Positions 34,552 to 42,969 are shown, counted from the first letter of the stretch. The stretch is DNA of 64,000 nt from an uncultured Limimonas sp. (GCA_913055855.1 CAJXKW010000002.1:9150-73149); one strand, 5' to 3'. Program-made: numbers and translations. Notes: a model not told the origin generated them from the sequence alone.

Positions 34552-34968
34552 CTAACCCCCGACGATCACCTTGCTCTGCGAGGGCGAGACAATGGTGCCC
34601 GCCGGCACGTTGGCGCTGCTGCCGTTGTGCTTGGTCGGACAGGTCTGGTGCACGGCCGCCTGCCCCTCGACCTTCACCTTGCTGCTGCCCTTGCTGATGC
34701 TCACCGGGCCCTTGATCATGTTCGACACCACGCCGCCGCCGGCCGTGCCCGCTTCATCGCCGGTGGACATCGTGATTTGCGTGCTCTTGGTCACCACGCC
34801 CTGGTTCAGCACCTTCACGCGCTTGGACAGGGTGCCGGGATTGGCCTGCATCAGCATCGTGGTGTTCGGATAGGGCATGGGCGTGGGCCCCGCCGGCGTG
34901 GGGGTCTTGCAGGTATCCGGCCCGCTGGCGACGGCGTTGCCGCCCTGCTTCGTCGATATGGGAAACAC
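34552..34968 (-). CDS. DUF4150 PAAR-like protein (T6SS spike tip), stand-alone 138 aa
   Basis: DTCKTPTPAGPTPMPYPNTTMLMQANPGTLSKRVKVLNQGVV...STGDEAGTAGGGVVSN...VKVEGQAAVHQTCPTKHNG is the DUF4150 signature. Confidence 0.8.
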   Translation of the reverse strand: MFPISTKQGGNAVASGPDTCKTPTPAGPTPMPYPNTTMLMQANPGTLSKRVKVLNQGVVTKSTQITMSTGDEAGTAGGGVVSNMIKGPVSISKGSSKVKVEGQAAVHQTCPTKHNGSSANVPAGTIVSPSQSKVIVGG

Positions 34969-34986
34969 GTGCGTCTCCTCCCCGCG

Positions 34987-35769
34987 TCAGCCCAGGCGGA
35001 TCTGCTCGCCGTCCAGCTTCGCCTCGCCCTTGGCGCGAAGATCCAGCTTGTCCGCGCCCAGATCGCAGGTCTCGTCCACGACCACCCGCATGCGCCCGGC
35101 GTCCTGGCGGTACAGGCCGCTCGCCCGGCGGAAGACACTGCCCGCGCGCTCGACGATGCGACCGGCGCTAACCTCCAGGCGGGACGAAGCCTGGCGCACC
35201 CGCCGGATCGTCGCGGTGAGCGCGTCGGCCCGGACGATCGCCGCGGTCACCGCGAACAGCGCCGAGCGCGCGCGCAGGGTCAGGCGATCCGTCTCCAGAT
35301 GGGCGCTCGCCGTGCTCTCGAAGCGCAGGTTCCGGCCCGCGCGCAGGGCGATGTCCCCGTCCGGCGCCGCGAGCGCCAGGTTCGCCACCGCCCCGGGGCT
35401 CAGGACAAGCTCACCCGTCGCCGGGTCATAGGCGACCACGAGCCCGCGGTCCGGATCGCGGAGCACCAGCCGGCCGCCCTCTTCCTCAGGCCCCGCGGCG
35501 GCGCGCGCGCCCGCTTCCGCGCCGGCGTGGTCGAGCACGCCGATGACATAGGCGCCACCGGCGCCGTCGTCCGCAAGGAGCACCCGGCTCCCGACGGCGC
35601 AGCGGCCGGCCTGCGCCAGGGCGTGCTGCGCCGGCCGGACCGAGCGGCCCGGCGCACCCGCCGGGCGCACGCGATACCCGCCGTCCGCCGTCACCGCCAC
35701 GACCTCCGCCGGCCGGAACGGTGCCGCCGGCTGCGTTGGCGCCGACGCCCGTTCGAGGGTTTCCACCAT
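34987..35769 (-). CDS. DUF3540-like protein
   Basis: This is a 260-aa Ala/Arg-rich beta protein. It occupies the position between the pentapeptide proteins and the PAAR-like gene that DUF3540 holds in vgrG-DUF2169 modules. The call is mainly by context. Confidence 0.45.
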   Translation of the reverse strand: MVETLERASAPTQPAAPFRPAEVVAVTADGGYRVRPAGAPGRSVRPAQHALAQAGRCAVGSRVLLADDGAGGAYVIGVLDHAGAEAGARAAAGPEEEGGRLVLRDPDRGLVVAYDPATGELVLSPGAVANLALAAPDGDIALRAGRNLRFESTASAHLETDRLTLRARSALFAVTAAIVRADALTATIRRVRQASSRLEVSAGRIVERAGSVFRRASGLYRQDAGRMRVVVDETCDLGADKLDLRAKGEAKLDGEQIRLG

Positions 35770-40328: not shown

Positions 40329-40362
40329 GGGCGCGGCCCTCGTCTCGCCGGCGCGTTCGGCG

Positions 40363-42969
40363 TCAGTTGACCTGGAGGGTGCCGTTCTTGACGTTCAGCG
40401 ATCCGTCGGCGGCGATGTTTTTGCTGGCGAAGCTGATGTTGCCGCTGCTTTCAACTTTCATGTAAGTTGAATCGGTGGCGGCAATGAAGGATTCCTGCTT
40501 GCTTCGCATCACGGTCTTGCCGTCGCTCTTGACGTAGAACGCGCCCTCGGCGTTGGCGCGGTTCGTGCCAGCATTCATATGGCCAAGGAAGACGGCACCA
40601 TCCTTTTGTGCCGCAATATACCCCATGGGTGCGACGCCCTGCACACCCATCATGGCAGCCTGATCGGTATCGAGATGGATGCGACTGTGATAATCTTTGT
40701 CCTCGGCCTTGGCCGCACCTTTCGTATATTTGAAATAGTGCGCCATCGACGCGGCCCAGGCGACAAAGGATGCGGTCGCCAGCCCCTCCAGCGTTCCCCG
40801 GAAAACCTGCGATCCGTCCTCGACCTCGCGCGTCAGGCCGTAAATGCCCGCCCCGCTTAACGATGCCCCGAGTGCCACGGCCGCACTCGAAAGCTGCAGC
40901 CCCGCGAACAGCGACTTGTGCTTGGCGAAATTCTCGGCCGCTTTCGCGTTATCGAGGACACCCAACGAAATGGATTGATGCGTTTCCGTCACGTCGGTAT
41001 TGGAGTGGCAAAATGTTTTCCCGCTCGTGTAATCGAGATGATTGCTCTTGCCGTACGAGACCTTCGGGCCGTACCCGACGTCGACCGCGCCGGCAACCGA
41101 ATAATTCAAGGCCCCGGAGATGCTGCCGGAGGCGGTAAAACCGCCGAACAGGCTCAGGTCCGCTCCCATCCGGACGTCCTGATTGTCGCCCCAACTGAAC
41201 TCGGCTGACGAGGCCTGGCTGGCGACCGTTTTCTTCCAGCCCAGAAGGCTCTCGGAGAAGTCGAGGAAATACTGCGGGCCCGCGTCCCAGACGCCCATGC
41301 CGCCACCGTTGATCTGAAGGCGGCGCTTGCCGTTGATGACCTCCTCCTTGTTGCCCATCGTGATGCTGACGTGGTTGCCGCCGGTATAATCGAACCAGCC
41401 GTCCAGCTTGTCGCGCATTTCGTCGTTGGCTTTTTCGATTTCCAGGCCCTGAGCCTCGGGGTCATCCGCGTTCTTGTCGACCTCGGCGGTCATTTTGTTC
41501 TCGTTCTCGGCGTAGCGGTGCTCCGTCCCGTTGCTCGTGGTGAGATTGGCGGCGCCCAGGCGCAGATAGGTCGTGCTGGCGGGGTCGAAGGCTTCGTCGG
41601 TGGCGGTGTTGTAACTGGGCACATAGAGGCTGAATGCCTTGCCGTCCCGGCCCGTCCCGCTCGACGTGGTCGTGCTCTCGCTGGCAAACGCGCCACTGGC
41701 CGCATCGTTGGCGAGGTGCCGCGGCACCGGGGCCTCGTTCACACTGGCCCTCGCACCGGCGAAGGCGGCGGCCGGGTGCGCGCCCGGCGCGTGCTGCGGC
41801 CGGCGCCGCCGGGCCGGCCGTTCCGGAGCCTGCGGGAGGCTGCCGGTGATGACCGGCGCGTCCGGGCTGTCGTCCGCGCAGTTCCAGAGCACGCGGGTGC
41901 CCGGCCGGGGCGCCGCGCCCGGAACCGCGCTGGCCGCCCAGAGCGTGGCCGTGGCATCTGCGCCGTCGGGTACGGCAATGGCGATGCGCCCGTCCCCGGC
42001 CCGGCGCAGCGTTTCCCCAGTTGCGTCGCCCAGCACGACGCCGGTGCGGGGGCCCGTTCCCACGGGCGCGACGGCGGTTTCGCCCGCCGTGAGCAGGTCG
42101 TCCGGCGGCAGCGCCGTGTACGCCGCCCGATAGCTCAGCGCCCCGCTTTCCGGATCGGGCGCGAGCGTATGGCGCACCGCGGCGATGCAAAGCTCAGGGG
42201 GCGACCCGCCGGCGCCGGGAAGCCGGACACCTGGGCACACGCCCGGAACCGTGCTGGTCCCGGACCATTCGGTCCGGGCGACCGGACAGTCGGCCGCATC
42301 CAGGGTCAGCCGGCCCGCGCGCACCAGGCCGGCACGCGCCGCCTCGACCGCCCGCGGCGCCGGCTCGCCGGCCGCTTCGGCCAGGGCCGCCGGCGTGTCG
42401 CCGACCACGAGCATCTCGCCGGCGGGCGCGTGGACGAAAACCGCACCCAGGCCGGCGCGGGCCATCGCCCGCGTGAGCAGCGCCCAGTCTGTTTCGTTGA
42501 CCTGCGTTAAAACCGAGGCCGCGTCACCGGTGCCGCCTCCGCGCGCCGCCAGACGCGCGTAAGCCCCTTCGGCCGGGCGCAGCCCTGCGGTCAGCGCAAG
42601 AACCAGATCGGCTGCCGTCAGGTCCCGGAAACTGCGCGTGCGCGGCCGCCGGTCAAGCAACCACGCGCGCGGGACCAGGCTTACCCCGATGTGCGATCCG
42701 CCTTCGGGCGCGGGCCGAACGTCCCATCGGGCGACGATCCCGCGCCAGACGGCCGAGCCGCCGCGGCCATCCGCGACGGTCAGCGCCGCGTCGCAGCCGA
42801 GCGCAGCCTCCGCCGAGGGTGCCCCTTCCGGGCTCGCAAGCTCGATATCGAAGCCGTAAACGGCGCTTACCGCCTCATTTCCCGTGGCCCGGCACACACG
42901 CCCCACCGGCCCCCCGGCATGCATCAATTCGAACGCGGCCGTGACCGGCTGCGGCGTCGCCGTGGCCAT
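40363..42969 (-). CDS. vgrG: VgrG-like spike protein with a divergent, lower-GC C-terminal module
   Basis: The start ATG at 42969 has a GGGGAGG SD. The N-terminal half is gp27/gp5-OB-like (VYGFDIELASPEG..., GPRTGVVLGDATGE...RPGTRVLWNCADDSPDAPVITGSLP). A P/A-rich linker follows. The last ~445 aa are unassigned and include a hydrophobic stretch, LFAGLQLSSAAVALGASLSGAGIYGL. Confidence 0.6.
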   Translation of the reverse strand: MATATPQPVTAAFELMHAGGPVGRVCRATGNEAVSAVYGFDIELASPEGAPSAEAALGCDAALTVADGRGGSAVWRGIVARWDVRPAPEGGSHIGVSLVPRAWLLDRRPRTRSFRDLTAADLVLALTAGLRPAEGAYARLAARGGGTGDAASVLTQVNETDWALLTRAMARAGLGAVFVHAPAGEMLVVGDTPAALAEAAGEPAPRAVEAARAGLVRAGRLTLDAADCPVARTEWSGTSTVPGVCPGVRLPGAGGSPPELCIAAVRHTLAPDPESGALSYRAAYTALPPDDLLTAGETAVAPVGTGPRTGVVLGDATGETLRRAGDGRIAIAVPDGADATATLWAASAVPGAAPRPGTRVLWNCADDSPDAPVITGSLPQAPERPARRRRPQHAPGAHPAAAFAGARASVNEAPVPRHLANDAASGAFASESTTTSSGTGRDGKAFSLYVPSYNTATDEAFDPASTTYLRLGAANLTTSNGTEHRYAENENKMTAEVDKNADDPEAQGLEIEKANDEMRDKLDGWFDYTGGNHVSITMGNKEEVINGKRRLQINGGGMGVWDAGPQYFLDFSESLLGWKKTVASQASSAEFSWGDNQDVRMGADLSLFGGFTASGSISGALNYSVAGAVDVGYGPKVSYGKSNHLDYTSGKTFCHSNTDVTETHQSISLGVLDNAKAAENFAKHKSLFAGLQLSSAAVALGASLSGAGIYGLTREVEDGSQVFRGTLEGLATASFVAWAASMAHYFKYTKGAAKAEDKDYHSRIHLDTDQAAMMGVQGVAPMGYIAAQKDGAVFLGHMNAGTNRANAEGAFYVKSDGKTVMRSKQESFIAATDSTYMKVESSGNISFASKNIAADGSLNVKNGTLQVN

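What the first reader, a model, noticed from the sequence alone, without database searches (positions are those of the whole stretch)
34552..42969. Orphan T6SS spike module (VgrG / DUF2169-PRP / PRP / DUF3540 / DUF4150) with no recognisable toxin, immunity or core genes
The five-gene minus-strand unit has tight spacing, with 4- to 37-nt gaps. It matches the recurring vgrG-DUF2169-pentapeptide-DUF3540-PAAR-like arrangement.

DUF2169 proteins are described T6SS adaptors that load DUF4150-containing effectors onto VgrG, with Agrobacterium Tde2 as the paradigm. Here the DUF4150 protein is a bare 138-aa cap with no C-terminal toxin. No small immunity-like ORF follows. No tssA-M, hcp or clpV is present anywhere in the 64 kb.

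The payload could be one of three things: the pentapeptide proteins themselves, the odd VgrG C-terminus, or nothing, if this is a structural spike variant. The roles of the PRP and DUF3540 components remain uncharacterised as far as I know.
Basis: partly seen in the sequence, partly recalled or inferred. Interest (0 to 1): 0.65.

Follow-up and report, generated by a model that had tools for sequence, protein, structure and literature searches.

The report
T6SS spike-assembly module, membrane-hairpin VgrG
These five genes are a recently described helper set (Class III Tvp: TvpAB, TvpB, TvpC and a PAAR-like cap) that builds the spike tip of a type VI secretion system. Here they serve an unusual spike protein whose rare tail carries a probable membrane-inserting hairpin, always next to a transglutaminase-like gene.

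Summary
VgrG (40363-42969), DUF2169-pentapeptide (37815-40328), pentapeptide (35807-37810), DUF3540 (34987-35769) and a bare 138-aa DUF4150 cap (34552-34968) lie on the minus strand with gaps of 34, 4, 37 and 18 nt. The window has no T6SS core gene.

This gene order is the Class III Tvp system (EMBO J 2026; DUF2169 synteny type C, JBC 2025). The pentapeptide and DUF3540 proteins are spike-tip chaperones, not cargo.

The module is orphan only by position. One complete T6SS core lies on contig C5 without any vgrG or PAAR. The genome's only two vgrG genes and its only PAAR-like gene are in this window.

Three points were not found in those two papers:
- The VgrG tail (residues ~445-868) belongs to a rare family with no Pfam or PDB match. 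It contains a conserved, uncharged, Gly/Ala-rich helical hairpin and is the likeliest payload.
- A catalytically intact transglutaminase-like gene (43090-43902) accompanies this VgrG type in three independent lineages. It was absent from eight other Class III loci.
- The "truncated" second VgrG (47809-49392) is a conserved short hub, which suggests a two-piece spike.

The scan has reported Class III Tvp modules in many other genomes. AlphaFold2 gave no usable model of the tail.

The parts
40363..42969 (-). VgrG1: spike protein of 868 aa. It has a reduced gp27-like hub plus an OB fold (residues ~1-385), a Pro/Ala/Arg-rich linker, and a C-terminal module (CTD) from residue ~445.
   Evidence: Phage_GPD matches only residues 32-210. 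TIGR03361 scores 68 bits against a cut-off of 186. The OB motif aligns to solved VgrG structures and to VgrG2. About 155 residues of the hub are missing relative to VgrG2.
40366..41637 (-). CTD of VgrG1 (residues 445-868). It has a beta-rich core with the motifs VPxY..SYLRLG, G(W/V)FDYT(D/G)GN and W(R/K)KT..SS..GD, then a helical hairpin, then beta strands to the C-end.
   Evidence: No Pfam match and no PDB sequence match. There are 48 relatives among 1.84 billion representatives. Of 27 scanned, 21 are VgrGs. GC is 0.60 against 0.76 for the hub part.
40732..40923 (-). Uncharged helical hairpin rich in small residues (residues ~683-746): KHKSLFAGLQLSSAAVALGASLSGAGIYGL, an acidic loop, then GTLEGLATASFVAWAASMAHYF, followed by a Lys-rich stretch.
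   Evidence: Across 27 family members the two segments hold 57% G/A/S/T against 36% overall. They hold 5-8% charged residues against 22% overall, and the loop holds 29%. Kyte-Doolittle peaks are 1.45 here and at least 1.6 in most members. Helices appear at this place in both low-confidence AlphaFold2 models.
37815..40328 (-). TvpAB: a DUF2169 chaperone domain fused to a pentapeptide-repeat domain (837 aa).
   Evidence: PF09937 E 6.5e-87 over residues 25-310; Pentapeptide E 3e-52. It is 32-39% identical to the counterparts in related loci.
35807..37810 (-). TvpB: a stand-alone pentapeptide-repeat protein (667 aa).
   Evidence: Pentapeptide E 2e-68 with 15 stretches. The gene call gives 667 aa.
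34987..35769 (-). TvpC: a DUF3540 protein (260 aa). By analogy it is a VgrG-tip mimic made of an OB fold and a short beta prism.
   Evidence: PF12059 scores 68.8 bits over residues 130-260. It aligns with six orthologues, which share the OB-like GDRVL...YIIGVL block and the terminal KIDGEKIHLG motif.
34552..34968 (-). PIPY / PAAR-like cap (DUF4150, 138 aa) with no toxin extension.
   Evidence: PF13665 scores 92.7 bits. The motif is PTPMPYPN. It is the only PAAR-like gene in the assembly, and no canonical PAAR gene was found.
43090..43902 (+). Transglutaminase-like cysteine enzyme (Bact_transglu_N plus Transglut_core, 270 aa), divergent from vgrG1. It is a conserved companion of CTD-type VgrG modules.
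   Evidence: Pfam assignment. GVCQD, HAW and DP are invariant. The gene directly follows the cap gene in L013, L014 and L015. It has the same divergent position in G005. None was found in 8 other DUF3540 loci. It is the only such gene in the genome.
47809..49392 (+). VgrG2: a short VgrG of 527 aa, with a complete gp27 hub and OB fold and no needle.
   Evidence: Phage_GPD matches profile 1-303 of 305. TIGR03361 scores 266.7 bits, above the cut-off. The G005 orthologue ends at the same residue. So does the short VgrG of L012, where four in-frame stops precede a separate CTD gene.

Best explanation
The unit is a Class III Tvp (formerly TagAB/TagB/TagC/TagD) spike-assembly module. It supplies the spike and tip for the single T6SS encoded on contig C5.

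By analogy with Serratia marcescens, the steps are as follows:
1. The DUF2169 domain of TvpAB holds the hydrophobic patch of the PIPY cap.
2. TvpAB, TvpB and the VgrG-tip mimic TvpC form a pre-complex with the cap.
3. TvpC is then exchanged for VgrG1.
4. The two long pentapeptide beta-helices lie along and shield the VgrG tail until firing. They stay in the producer cell.

The payload is the VgrG1 C-terminal module itself. It is a needle-like, beta-rich domain tethered to the hub by a flexible linker. It carries a conserved uncharged Gly/Ala-rich helical hairpin that inserts into the target membrane after delivery, causing depolarisation, pore formation or fusion.

Shown here: the domain identities, the gene order, the existence of the T6SS core, the rarity and conservation of the tail, and the composition of the hairpin. 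Inferred: the assembly pathway (from a homologous system), the membrane activity, and the kind of target.
For: - All four Tvp components and vgrG are present in the published order (PMC13373197; PMC11883445).
- A complete core lies on C5: Fha, TssJ, TssK, TssL, TssM, PppA, TssA, TssB, TssC, TssE, TssF, TssG, ClpV, a sigma-54 activator, Hcp and PpkA. It has no vgrG or PAAR.
- The only vgrG and PAAR-like genes found are in this window.
- C2 and C5 have matching tetranucleotide composition, r = 0.997.
- The same module with a related tail occurs in L012-L015 and L037. In L015 and L037 it sits inside the main T6SS cluster.
- In G005 the orthologues are intact at 48-76% identity.
- The hairpin is conserved in composition across 27 diverged family members.
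- Precedents: the toxicity delivered by the S. marcescens VgrG1 pathway depolarises membranes and is attributed to VgrG1 itself or a partner. [quoted passage not shown]
Against: - No experiment exists, and the organism is an uncultured metagenome-assembled genome (MAG).
- The tail has no detectable relation to any known toxin or fusogen.
- Both AlphaFold2 runs failed, with mean pLDDT 30.9 and 35.9.
- The hairpin of this copy peaks at Kyte-Doolittle 1.45, below the classical 1.6 threshold for a transmembrane helix.
- No immunity candidate lies in or beside the module, and no DUF3192 (Vai1-like) gene was found in the genome.
- The VgrG1 hub is reduced and fails NCBIfam's VgrG cut-off, so it may not form a spike on its own.
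- No sigma-54 promoter was seen upstream of vgrG1.
Confidence: 0.6

Rival explanations
1. Two-piece spike. VgrG2, the short conserved hub, forms the Hcp-capping platform. VgrG1 is essentially the needle (the CTD) with a vestigial hub. Both are needed for one functional spike, either as heterotrimers or by the needle docking on the hub. This reading does not exclude the best explanation.
For: - VgrG2 passes the VgrG models in full, whereas VgrG1 matches only the first ~190 residues.
- VgrG2 is 36-43% identical to the hub of CTD-type VgrGs elsewhere, against 22-27% for VgrG1's own hub.
- VgrG2 ends exactly where the disordered linker begins in the fused proteins. The short VgrG of L012 ends at the same place and is followed by a separate CTD gene.
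- The G005 orthologue of VgrG2 has the same end.
- The closest homologue of VgrG1, P0001, lacks the OB fold.
Against: - VgrG1-type proteins keep an N-terminal hub remnant and an OB fold in the window, in G005 and in P0003. This argues that part still has a job.
- No contact between the two proteins could be modelled, because only monomer prediction was available.
- In published Class III systems, two VgrGs are alternatives and not partners.
Confidence: 0.3
2. The transglutaminase-like enzyme is the real cargo effector or a dedicated maturation enzyme. As cargo, it would be a cysteine protease, deamidase or cross-linker loaded on this spike. As a maturation enzyme, it would cut or cross-link the VgrG linker or tail. 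The tail would then be its carrier or its substrate.
For: - The gene follows the cap gene, the usual effector position, in L013, L014 and L015. It flanks vgrG1 in the window and in G005.
- This makes three independent lineages: window with G005, G031, and L013 with L014.
- None was found in 8 other DUF3540 loci.
- The Cys-His-Asp residues are invariant.
- The T6SS-linked copies group apart from the generic copies of the same order, including the second copy in G031.
- Sachar et al. expect a separately encoded effector in synteny type C.
Against: - It is absent from the CTD-type locus L037.
- Two members of the same clade, in G053 and G058, are not near T6SS genes.
- The Pfam family is a widespread cytoplasmic one, present in 46 of 61 relatives.
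- No conserved immunity gene follows it.
- Neither Tvp paper mentions it.
Confidence: 0.3
3. Purely structural spike variant. The tail is only a needle. The hairpin is a docking surface for the pentapeptide chaperones. The toxic cargo is encoded elsewhere in the genome.
For: - There is no toxin homology and no immunity gene.
- In S. marcescens the long VgrG1 tail is modelled as an extended prism without a toxin fold.
- This module is the only spike set found, so it must first of all serve a structural role.
Against: - An uncharged Gly/Ala-rich hairpin flanked by charges is conserved across a family with only 20-30% identity. That is unusual for a soluble needle.
- The two studied Class III VgrGs both act on membranes.
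Confidence: 0.2
4. The module is a decaying remnant, or the pentapeptide proteins are the cargo.
For: - The module is detached from the core cluster.
- The VgrG1 hub is reduced.
Against: - All ORFs are intact with tight spacing and coding GC3 of 0.79-0.92.
- Orthologues are intact in another genus.
- A complete core is present.
- TvpAB and TvpB are chaperones that have never been detected as secreted in S. marcescens.
Confidence: 0.04

Closest known systems
Class III Tvp system of Serratia marcescens Db10 (vgrG1-vai1-2246-tvpAB-tvpB-tvpC-paar1; Monlezun, Earl and Coulthurst, EMBO J 2026, PMC13373197). It equals DUF2169 synteny type C (Sachar et al., JBC 2025, PMC11883445).
   Same: - A DUF2169-pentapeptide fusion, a stand-alone pentapeptide protein, DUF3540 and a bare DUF4150 cap lie behind a long vgrG.
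- A second vgrG is present in the genome.
- No classical toxin domain is present.
   Different: - No Vai1 (DUF3192) immunity gene lies next to vgrG, and none was found in the genome.
- The VgrG tail is an unrelated, rare module joined by a disordered linker and carrying a hydrophobic hairpin.
- The VgrG hub is reduced.
- The module lies away from the core cluster and is the only spike set found, not an alternative one.
- A transglutaminase-like gene is attached.
Burkholderia thailandensis/pseudomallei T6SS-5 (vgrG5-tagAB5-tagB5-tagC5-tagD5)
   Same: - The same accessory gene order.
- A VgrG with a C-terminal domain beyond the VgrG structural features.
- A small PAAR-like cap without an extension, which is needed together with VgrG for a membrane event.
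   Different: - No sequence relation between the tails could be shown. All relatives of this tail whose sources were looked up come from environmental MAGs or metagenomes.
- The target and the activity here are unknown.
Glycine-zipper / small-residue membrane-inserting hairpins of pore-forming toxins (general class; named from my own knowledge)
   Same: - Two uncharged helices of about 22-27 residues, rich in Gly, Ala, Ser and Thr.
- A charged loop between them and a basic stretch after them.
   Different: - The resemblance is in composition only.
- The hairpin is embedded in a VgrG tail.
- The hydrophobicity of this copy is below the usual transmembrane threshold.
Bacterial transglutaminase-like cysteine enzymes (Pfam Bact_transglu_N plus Transglut_core, COG1305)
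   Same: - The same two domains and an intact Cys-His-Asp set.
- No signal peptide.
   Different: - This copy is a divergent subgroup. Its N-domain scores 39 bits against about 80 for the family copies in the other relatives of the same family.
- It is linked to CTD-type vgrG modules.
- It is the only copy found in this genome.

Membership tests
Class III Tvp system / DUF2169 synteny type C | [quoted passage not shown] | tested here: met
   PF09937 E 6.5e-87 over residues 25-310, plus Pentapeptide E 3e-52.
Class III Tvp system / DUF2169 synteny type C | A separate pentapeptide-repeat protein (TvpB) | tested here: met
   The 667-aa protein has 15 pentapeptide stretches, E 2e-68.
Class III Tvp system / DUF2169 synteny type C | A DUF3540 protein (TvpC) | tested here: met
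   PF12059 scores 68.8 bits against a cut-off of 27.9. The predicted OB-plus-prism fold was not modelled here.
Class III Tvp system / DUF2169 synteny type C | A DUF4150/PIPY cap with a P(I/V)P(Y/F)-type motif and no PAAR motif, encoded as a small separate protein | tested here: met
   PF13665 scores 92.7 bits. The protein has 138 aa and the motif PMPY within PTPMPYPN.
Class III Tvp system / DUF2169 synteny type C | An adjacent vgrG and a T6SS core in the same genome | tested here: met
   vgrG lies 34 nt upstream of tvpAB. A complete core lies on contig C5.
Class III Tvp system / DUF2169 synteny type C | A TvpC pre-complex that VgrG replaces, with the Tvp proteins required for firing | not testable with these tools
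   This needs pull-downs and mutants, and the organism is an uncultured MAG.
Class III Tvp system / DUF2169 synteny type C | A VgrG with an unusually long beta prism (a trend, not a rule) | tested here: inconclusive
   AlphaFold2 of the tail gave mean pLDDT 30.9 and 35.9.
Canonical VgrG/TssI (TIGR03361, Pfam Phage_GPD) | A full gp27-like hub plus OB fold scoring above the curated cut-off | tested here: not met
   VgrG1 scores 68 bits against a cut-off of 186.35, over profile positions 16-189 of 513. Phage_GPD is above its cut-off but covers only 2-176 of 305. VgrG2 meets both.
Specialised ('evolved') VgrG with a C-terminal effector domain | A C-terminal extension homologous to a known toxin or fusogen domain | tested here: not met
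   No Pfam, NCBIfam or PDB match to residues 445-868.
Specialised ('evolved') VgrG with a C-terminal effector domain | Toxic or membrane activity that resides in the extension | not testable with these tools
   Only the composition of the hairpin could be assessed.
Transglutaminase-like cysteine enzymes (Transglut_core) | A conserved Cys, His and Asp catalytic set | tested here: met
   GVCQD, HAW and DP are invariant in four linked copies.

The most novel reading that the evidence does not exclude
In this lineage the T6SS spike is modular. It would be built from a conserved short hub (VgrG2, with no needle) and a separately encoded needle. That needle is a rare module with a membrane-inserting hairpin, capped by the PIPY protein with the help of the Class III Tvp chaperones. 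In different genomes the needle is fused to the hub through a disordered tether, encoded on its own, or carried on a paralogue with a vestigial hub. The co-inherited transglutaminase-like enzyme would act on this needle, by cutting, cross-linking or riding on it.
Probability: 0.25. Interest if true: 0.7.

Novelty: new variant of a known kind. Interest (0 to 1): 0.45.

Why it matters
It removes a false mystery. The pentapeptide and DUF3540 genes are spike chaperones, and the module is the working spike of a complete T6SS.

It also points to three things that the two Tvp papers read here do not mention:
- A family of VgrG tails with a conserved membrane-type hairpin.
- A transglutaminase-like companion gene specific to that VgrG type.
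- Naturally fused, split and half-degenerate versions of one spike.

Together these offer a natural series for asking why Class III systems need such large pentapeptide shields. They could also help explain how a toxin-less VgrG harms a target, a question the Serratia study left open.

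Tried and rejected
- **AlphaFold2 of the tail.** It was run twice, with 5 and then 11 sequences, and gave mean pLDDT 30.9 and 35.9. No fold search was run, because it would be meaningless on such models.
- **Deepening the alignment.** The word-indexed protein searches returned only 1, 1 and 5 proteins. 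Hits of the exhaustive search could not be handed to the structure tool.
- **Profile search of the tail against PDB sequences.** Only noise was found.
- **Profile-profile comparison of the tail with TvpC.** This tested tip mimicry and gave a probability of 0.95%, so it found no support. A BLASTP of TvpC against VgrG1 also found nothing.
- **Collection scans with the tail alignment.** They gave 1 genome locus and 2 metagenome loci.
- **Sigma-54 promoter consensus.** Matches were no more frequent than chance, and none lies upstream of vgrG1.
- **Promoter and terminator scan.** It was uninformative.
- **Immunity candidates.** The small ORFs at 34283-34517 have non-coding GC3. One carries the tail motif of the neighbouring envelope cluster (note e1-3867008). 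The 288-aa exported protein downstream has no counterpart in related loci, and in G005 the neighbours beyond the cap gene differ. I therefore rejected the envelope cluster as part of the module.
- **DUF3192 (Vai1).** It was not found, but the control genomes did not ring either.

Full report
**Observation.**
- VgrG, 40363-42969 (868 aa).
- A DUF2169-pentapeptide fusion, 37815-40328 (837 aa).
- A pentapeptide protein, 35807-37810 (667 aa by the public gene call).
- DUF3540, 34987-35769 (260 aa).
- A 138-aa Tox-PAAR-like (DUF4150) protein, 34552-34968, whose domain fills the protein.

The gaps are 34, 4, 37 and 18 nt. The VgrG start at 42969 is backed by the gene call, a GGGGAGG ribosome-binding site and loss of coding GC3 upstream.

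I annotated the rest of the window. It holds housekeeping genes, a long envelope-lipoprotein cluster downstream, and the ribosomal-protein operon with secY, rpoA and rplQ. It has no tss, hcp or clpV gene.

**What the module is.** The gene order vgrG, DUF2169-pentapeptide, pentapeptide, DUF3540, DUF4150 is 'synteny type C' of DUF2169 genes, about 37% of all DUF2169 genes (Sachar et al. 2025, PMC11883445). [quoted passage not shown]

In Serratia marcescens, TvpAB, TvpB and TvpC form a pre-complex with Paar1. TvpC is a VgrG mimic with an OB fold and a prism but no gp27 hub, and VgrG1 then takes its place. Each gene is needed for firing when VgrG1 is the only spike. TvpAB and TvpB have never been detected as secreted.

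DUF2169 chaperones the hydrophobic patch of DUF4150 'PIPY' domains. The scan has already met this module in many other genomes.

**Not an orphan in function.** The assembly is a MAG of 3.7 Mb in 248 contigs, 94.5% complete. It has one T6SS core cluster on contig C5. The cluster holds:
- Fha, TssJ, TssK, TssL, TssM and PppA.
- TssA, TssB, TssC, TssE, TssF, TssG and ClpV.
- A sigma-54 activator, Hcp and PpkA.
- A TssC-like protein of 613 aa.

That cluster has no vgrG and no PAAR gene. Genome-wide there are two Phage_GPD matches, both in this window. There is one Tox-PAAR-like match, this one, and no canonical PAAR match. There is one Hcp match, on C5.

C2 and C5 have the same tetranucleotide make-up, r = 0.997. 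In G031, a genome of the same order, the same module directly follows the sigma-54 activator and two hcp genes. In L037 it follows tssG.

The module is therefore the spike and tip supply of this T6SS, moved to a site next to the ribosomal operon. The caveat is that about 5% of the genome is unassembled.

**The VgrG tail.** VgrG1 is atypical. Its hub matches only the first half of Phage_GPD and scores 68 bits on TIGR03361, whose cut-off is 186. Relative to VgrG2 it lacks about 155 residues. The OB fold is still recognisable.

After a Pro/Ala/Arg-rich linker comes a module of about 425 residues (445-868). It has lower GC (0.60) and no Pfam, NCBIfam or PDB match.

An exhaustive search of 1.84 billion representatives found only 48 relatives at E up to 0.001. 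Of 27 scanned, 21 are VgrGs. All ten that I looked up come from MAGs or metagenomes and are named, at most, 'VgrG'.

The family shares the motifs VPxY..SYLRLG, G(W/V)FDYT(D/G)GN and W(R/K)KT..SS..GD. It then has two uncharged segments of about 22-27 residues rich in small residues. These hold 57% G/A/S/T and 5-8% charged residues, against 36% and 22% overall. They are joined by an acidic or polar loop and followed by a basic stretch. Beta-type repeats then run to the C-end.

Kyte-Doolittle peaks reach 1.6-2.2 in most members and 1.45 in this copy.

Two AlphaFold2 runs failed, with pLDDT 30.9 and 35.9. Both place long helices at this spot. I did not run a fold search on such models.

Two studied Class III VgrGs act on membranes:
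- The S. marcescens VgrG1 pathway depolarises target membranes without a recognisable toxin domain.
- Burkholderia VgrG5 with the bare cap TagD5 is needed for membrane fusion.

Given this, I read the tail as the payload, a membrane-inserting needle. I read the more than 1000 residues of pentapeptide helix as its shield before firing. This is inference.

No immunity candidate was found:
- Nothing lies between vgrG and tvpAB.
- No DUF3192 gene was found (weak control).
- The small ORFs after the cap gene lack a coding signal.
- The downstream exported proteins are not conserved with the module.

This fits a non-bacterial target, an immunity gene elsewhere, or no toxicity at all.

**Related loci and a sixth gene.** Four loci with a related tail were recovered: L012 (a Gammaproteobacteria MAG), L013 and L014 (one metagenome) and L015 (G031). 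All carry TvpAB, TvpB, TvpC and PIPY. L037, found through P0027, does too.

In L013, L014 and L015 a Bact_transglu_N plus Transglut_core gene directly follows the cap gene. In the window its homologue is divergent from vgrG1, which one inversion of the vgrG-to-cap block would explain. G005, another genus of the window's family, has the same divergent layout. The contig of L012 ends right after the cap gene. L037 lacks the gene.

None of eight other DUF3540 loci drawn from a phylum-wide sample has this gene or a clear match to this tail within about 10 kb; one (L033) gave only a marginal tail match, E 1e-4.

The Cys, His and Asp residues are invariant. The linked copies group together in a tree, apart from the generic copies. 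The generic group includes the second copy of G031 and the copies of other genomes of the window's family. Two further members of that group, in G053 and G058, are not near T6SS genes.

The generic family is common, present in 46 of 61 relatives. G000 and G005 have only the linked, divergent copy. Counting window with G005, G031, and L013 with L014 as three independent lineages, I consider a functional link likely. I cannot tell whether it acts as cargo effector or as processing enzyme. Neither Tvp paper mentions it.

**The second VgrG.** VgrG2 (527 aa) is a complete hub with an OB fold. It ends at ...VKTASGIVMQFEDSTA.

Its orthologue in G005 ends at the same residue...IKTASGITLEIEDSTP. It lies right after the transglutaminase-like gene. 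In the window an autotransporter barrel and a cadherin-like gene are inserted between the two.

In L012 a 520-aa VgrG ends at the same place. Four in-frame stops and a separate 580-aa gene for the tail follow it. In the fused proteins of L013, L015 and L037, a low-complexity linker of about 100-200 residues begins at that place.

VgrG2 is closer to those hubs (36-43% identity) than VgrG1's own hub is (22-27%). P0001, the closest relative of VgrG1, has even lost the OB fold.

VgrG2 is therefore a conserved short hub and not a remnant. The tail behaves as a separable needle module. Whether hub and needle assemble across two proteins here is untested. Other agents of this scan have noted split VgrGs in other genomes, but those are unverified leads.

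**Verdict.** The module is a member of a system described in 2025-2026, so its core is known.

The variant features are the rare hairpin-bearing tail, the reduced hub paired with a conserved short hub, the companion transglutaminase-like gene, and the module's role as the only spike set found. Together these make it a new variant of a known kind, of moderate interest. The mechanism of the tail remains inferred.

Noticed in passing
window 47809-49392 (+): The 'truncated' VgrG is a conserved short form. Its orthologue in another genus (G005) and an unrelated short VgrG in L012 end at the same residue, which is where the linker starts in fused CTD-type VgrGs.
   Followed up: yes
window 43090-43902 (+): This transglutaminase-like gene has an intact catalytic set and is the only one in the genome. 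It is co-inherited with CTD-type vgrG modules in three lineages.
   Followed up: yes
window 44100-47696 (+): A short autotransporter-type barrel (398 aa) and a 791-aa cadherin/VCBS-repeat protein lie between the transglutaminase-like gene and vgrG2. In G005 those two genes are adjacent, so this pair is an insertion into a T6SS operon.
   Followed up: partly
L012 6961-10335: In a Gammaproteobacteria MAG, a 520-aa VgrG and a 580-aa protein carrying the same tail family are separate genes. The second has an N-terminus that looks like a coiled coil. TAG, TAG, TAA and TAG stops lie in frame between the two genes.
   Followed up: partly
L013 164-2980 and L014 163-1803: A second vgrG upstream of tvpAB also matches the tail profile (E 1e-20 to 1e-23). 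These loci therefore carry two CTD-type VgrGs in tandem, with tvpAB placed between them.
   Followed up: no
G000 contig C5 26315-28156 (-): A 613-aa protein with a VipB (TssC) sheath domain scores only 109 bits. It lies between an unannotated 287-aa gene and the PpkA kinase, beside the genuine TssBC pair.
   Followed up: no
window 15325-34212 (-): A long co-directional cluster of exported and lipoprotein genes starts 339 nt after the cap gene. It includes DUF1425, DUF6844, TPR/SLH proteins, an SLT transglycosylase and a 1951-aa protein with no Pfam match. It is not conserved next to the module in G005 and has lower GC3.
   Followed up: partly
window 2045-2761 (-): An isolated gene with a phage small-terminase domain (Terminase_2, E 1e-10) lies among housekeeping genes.
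   Followed up: no
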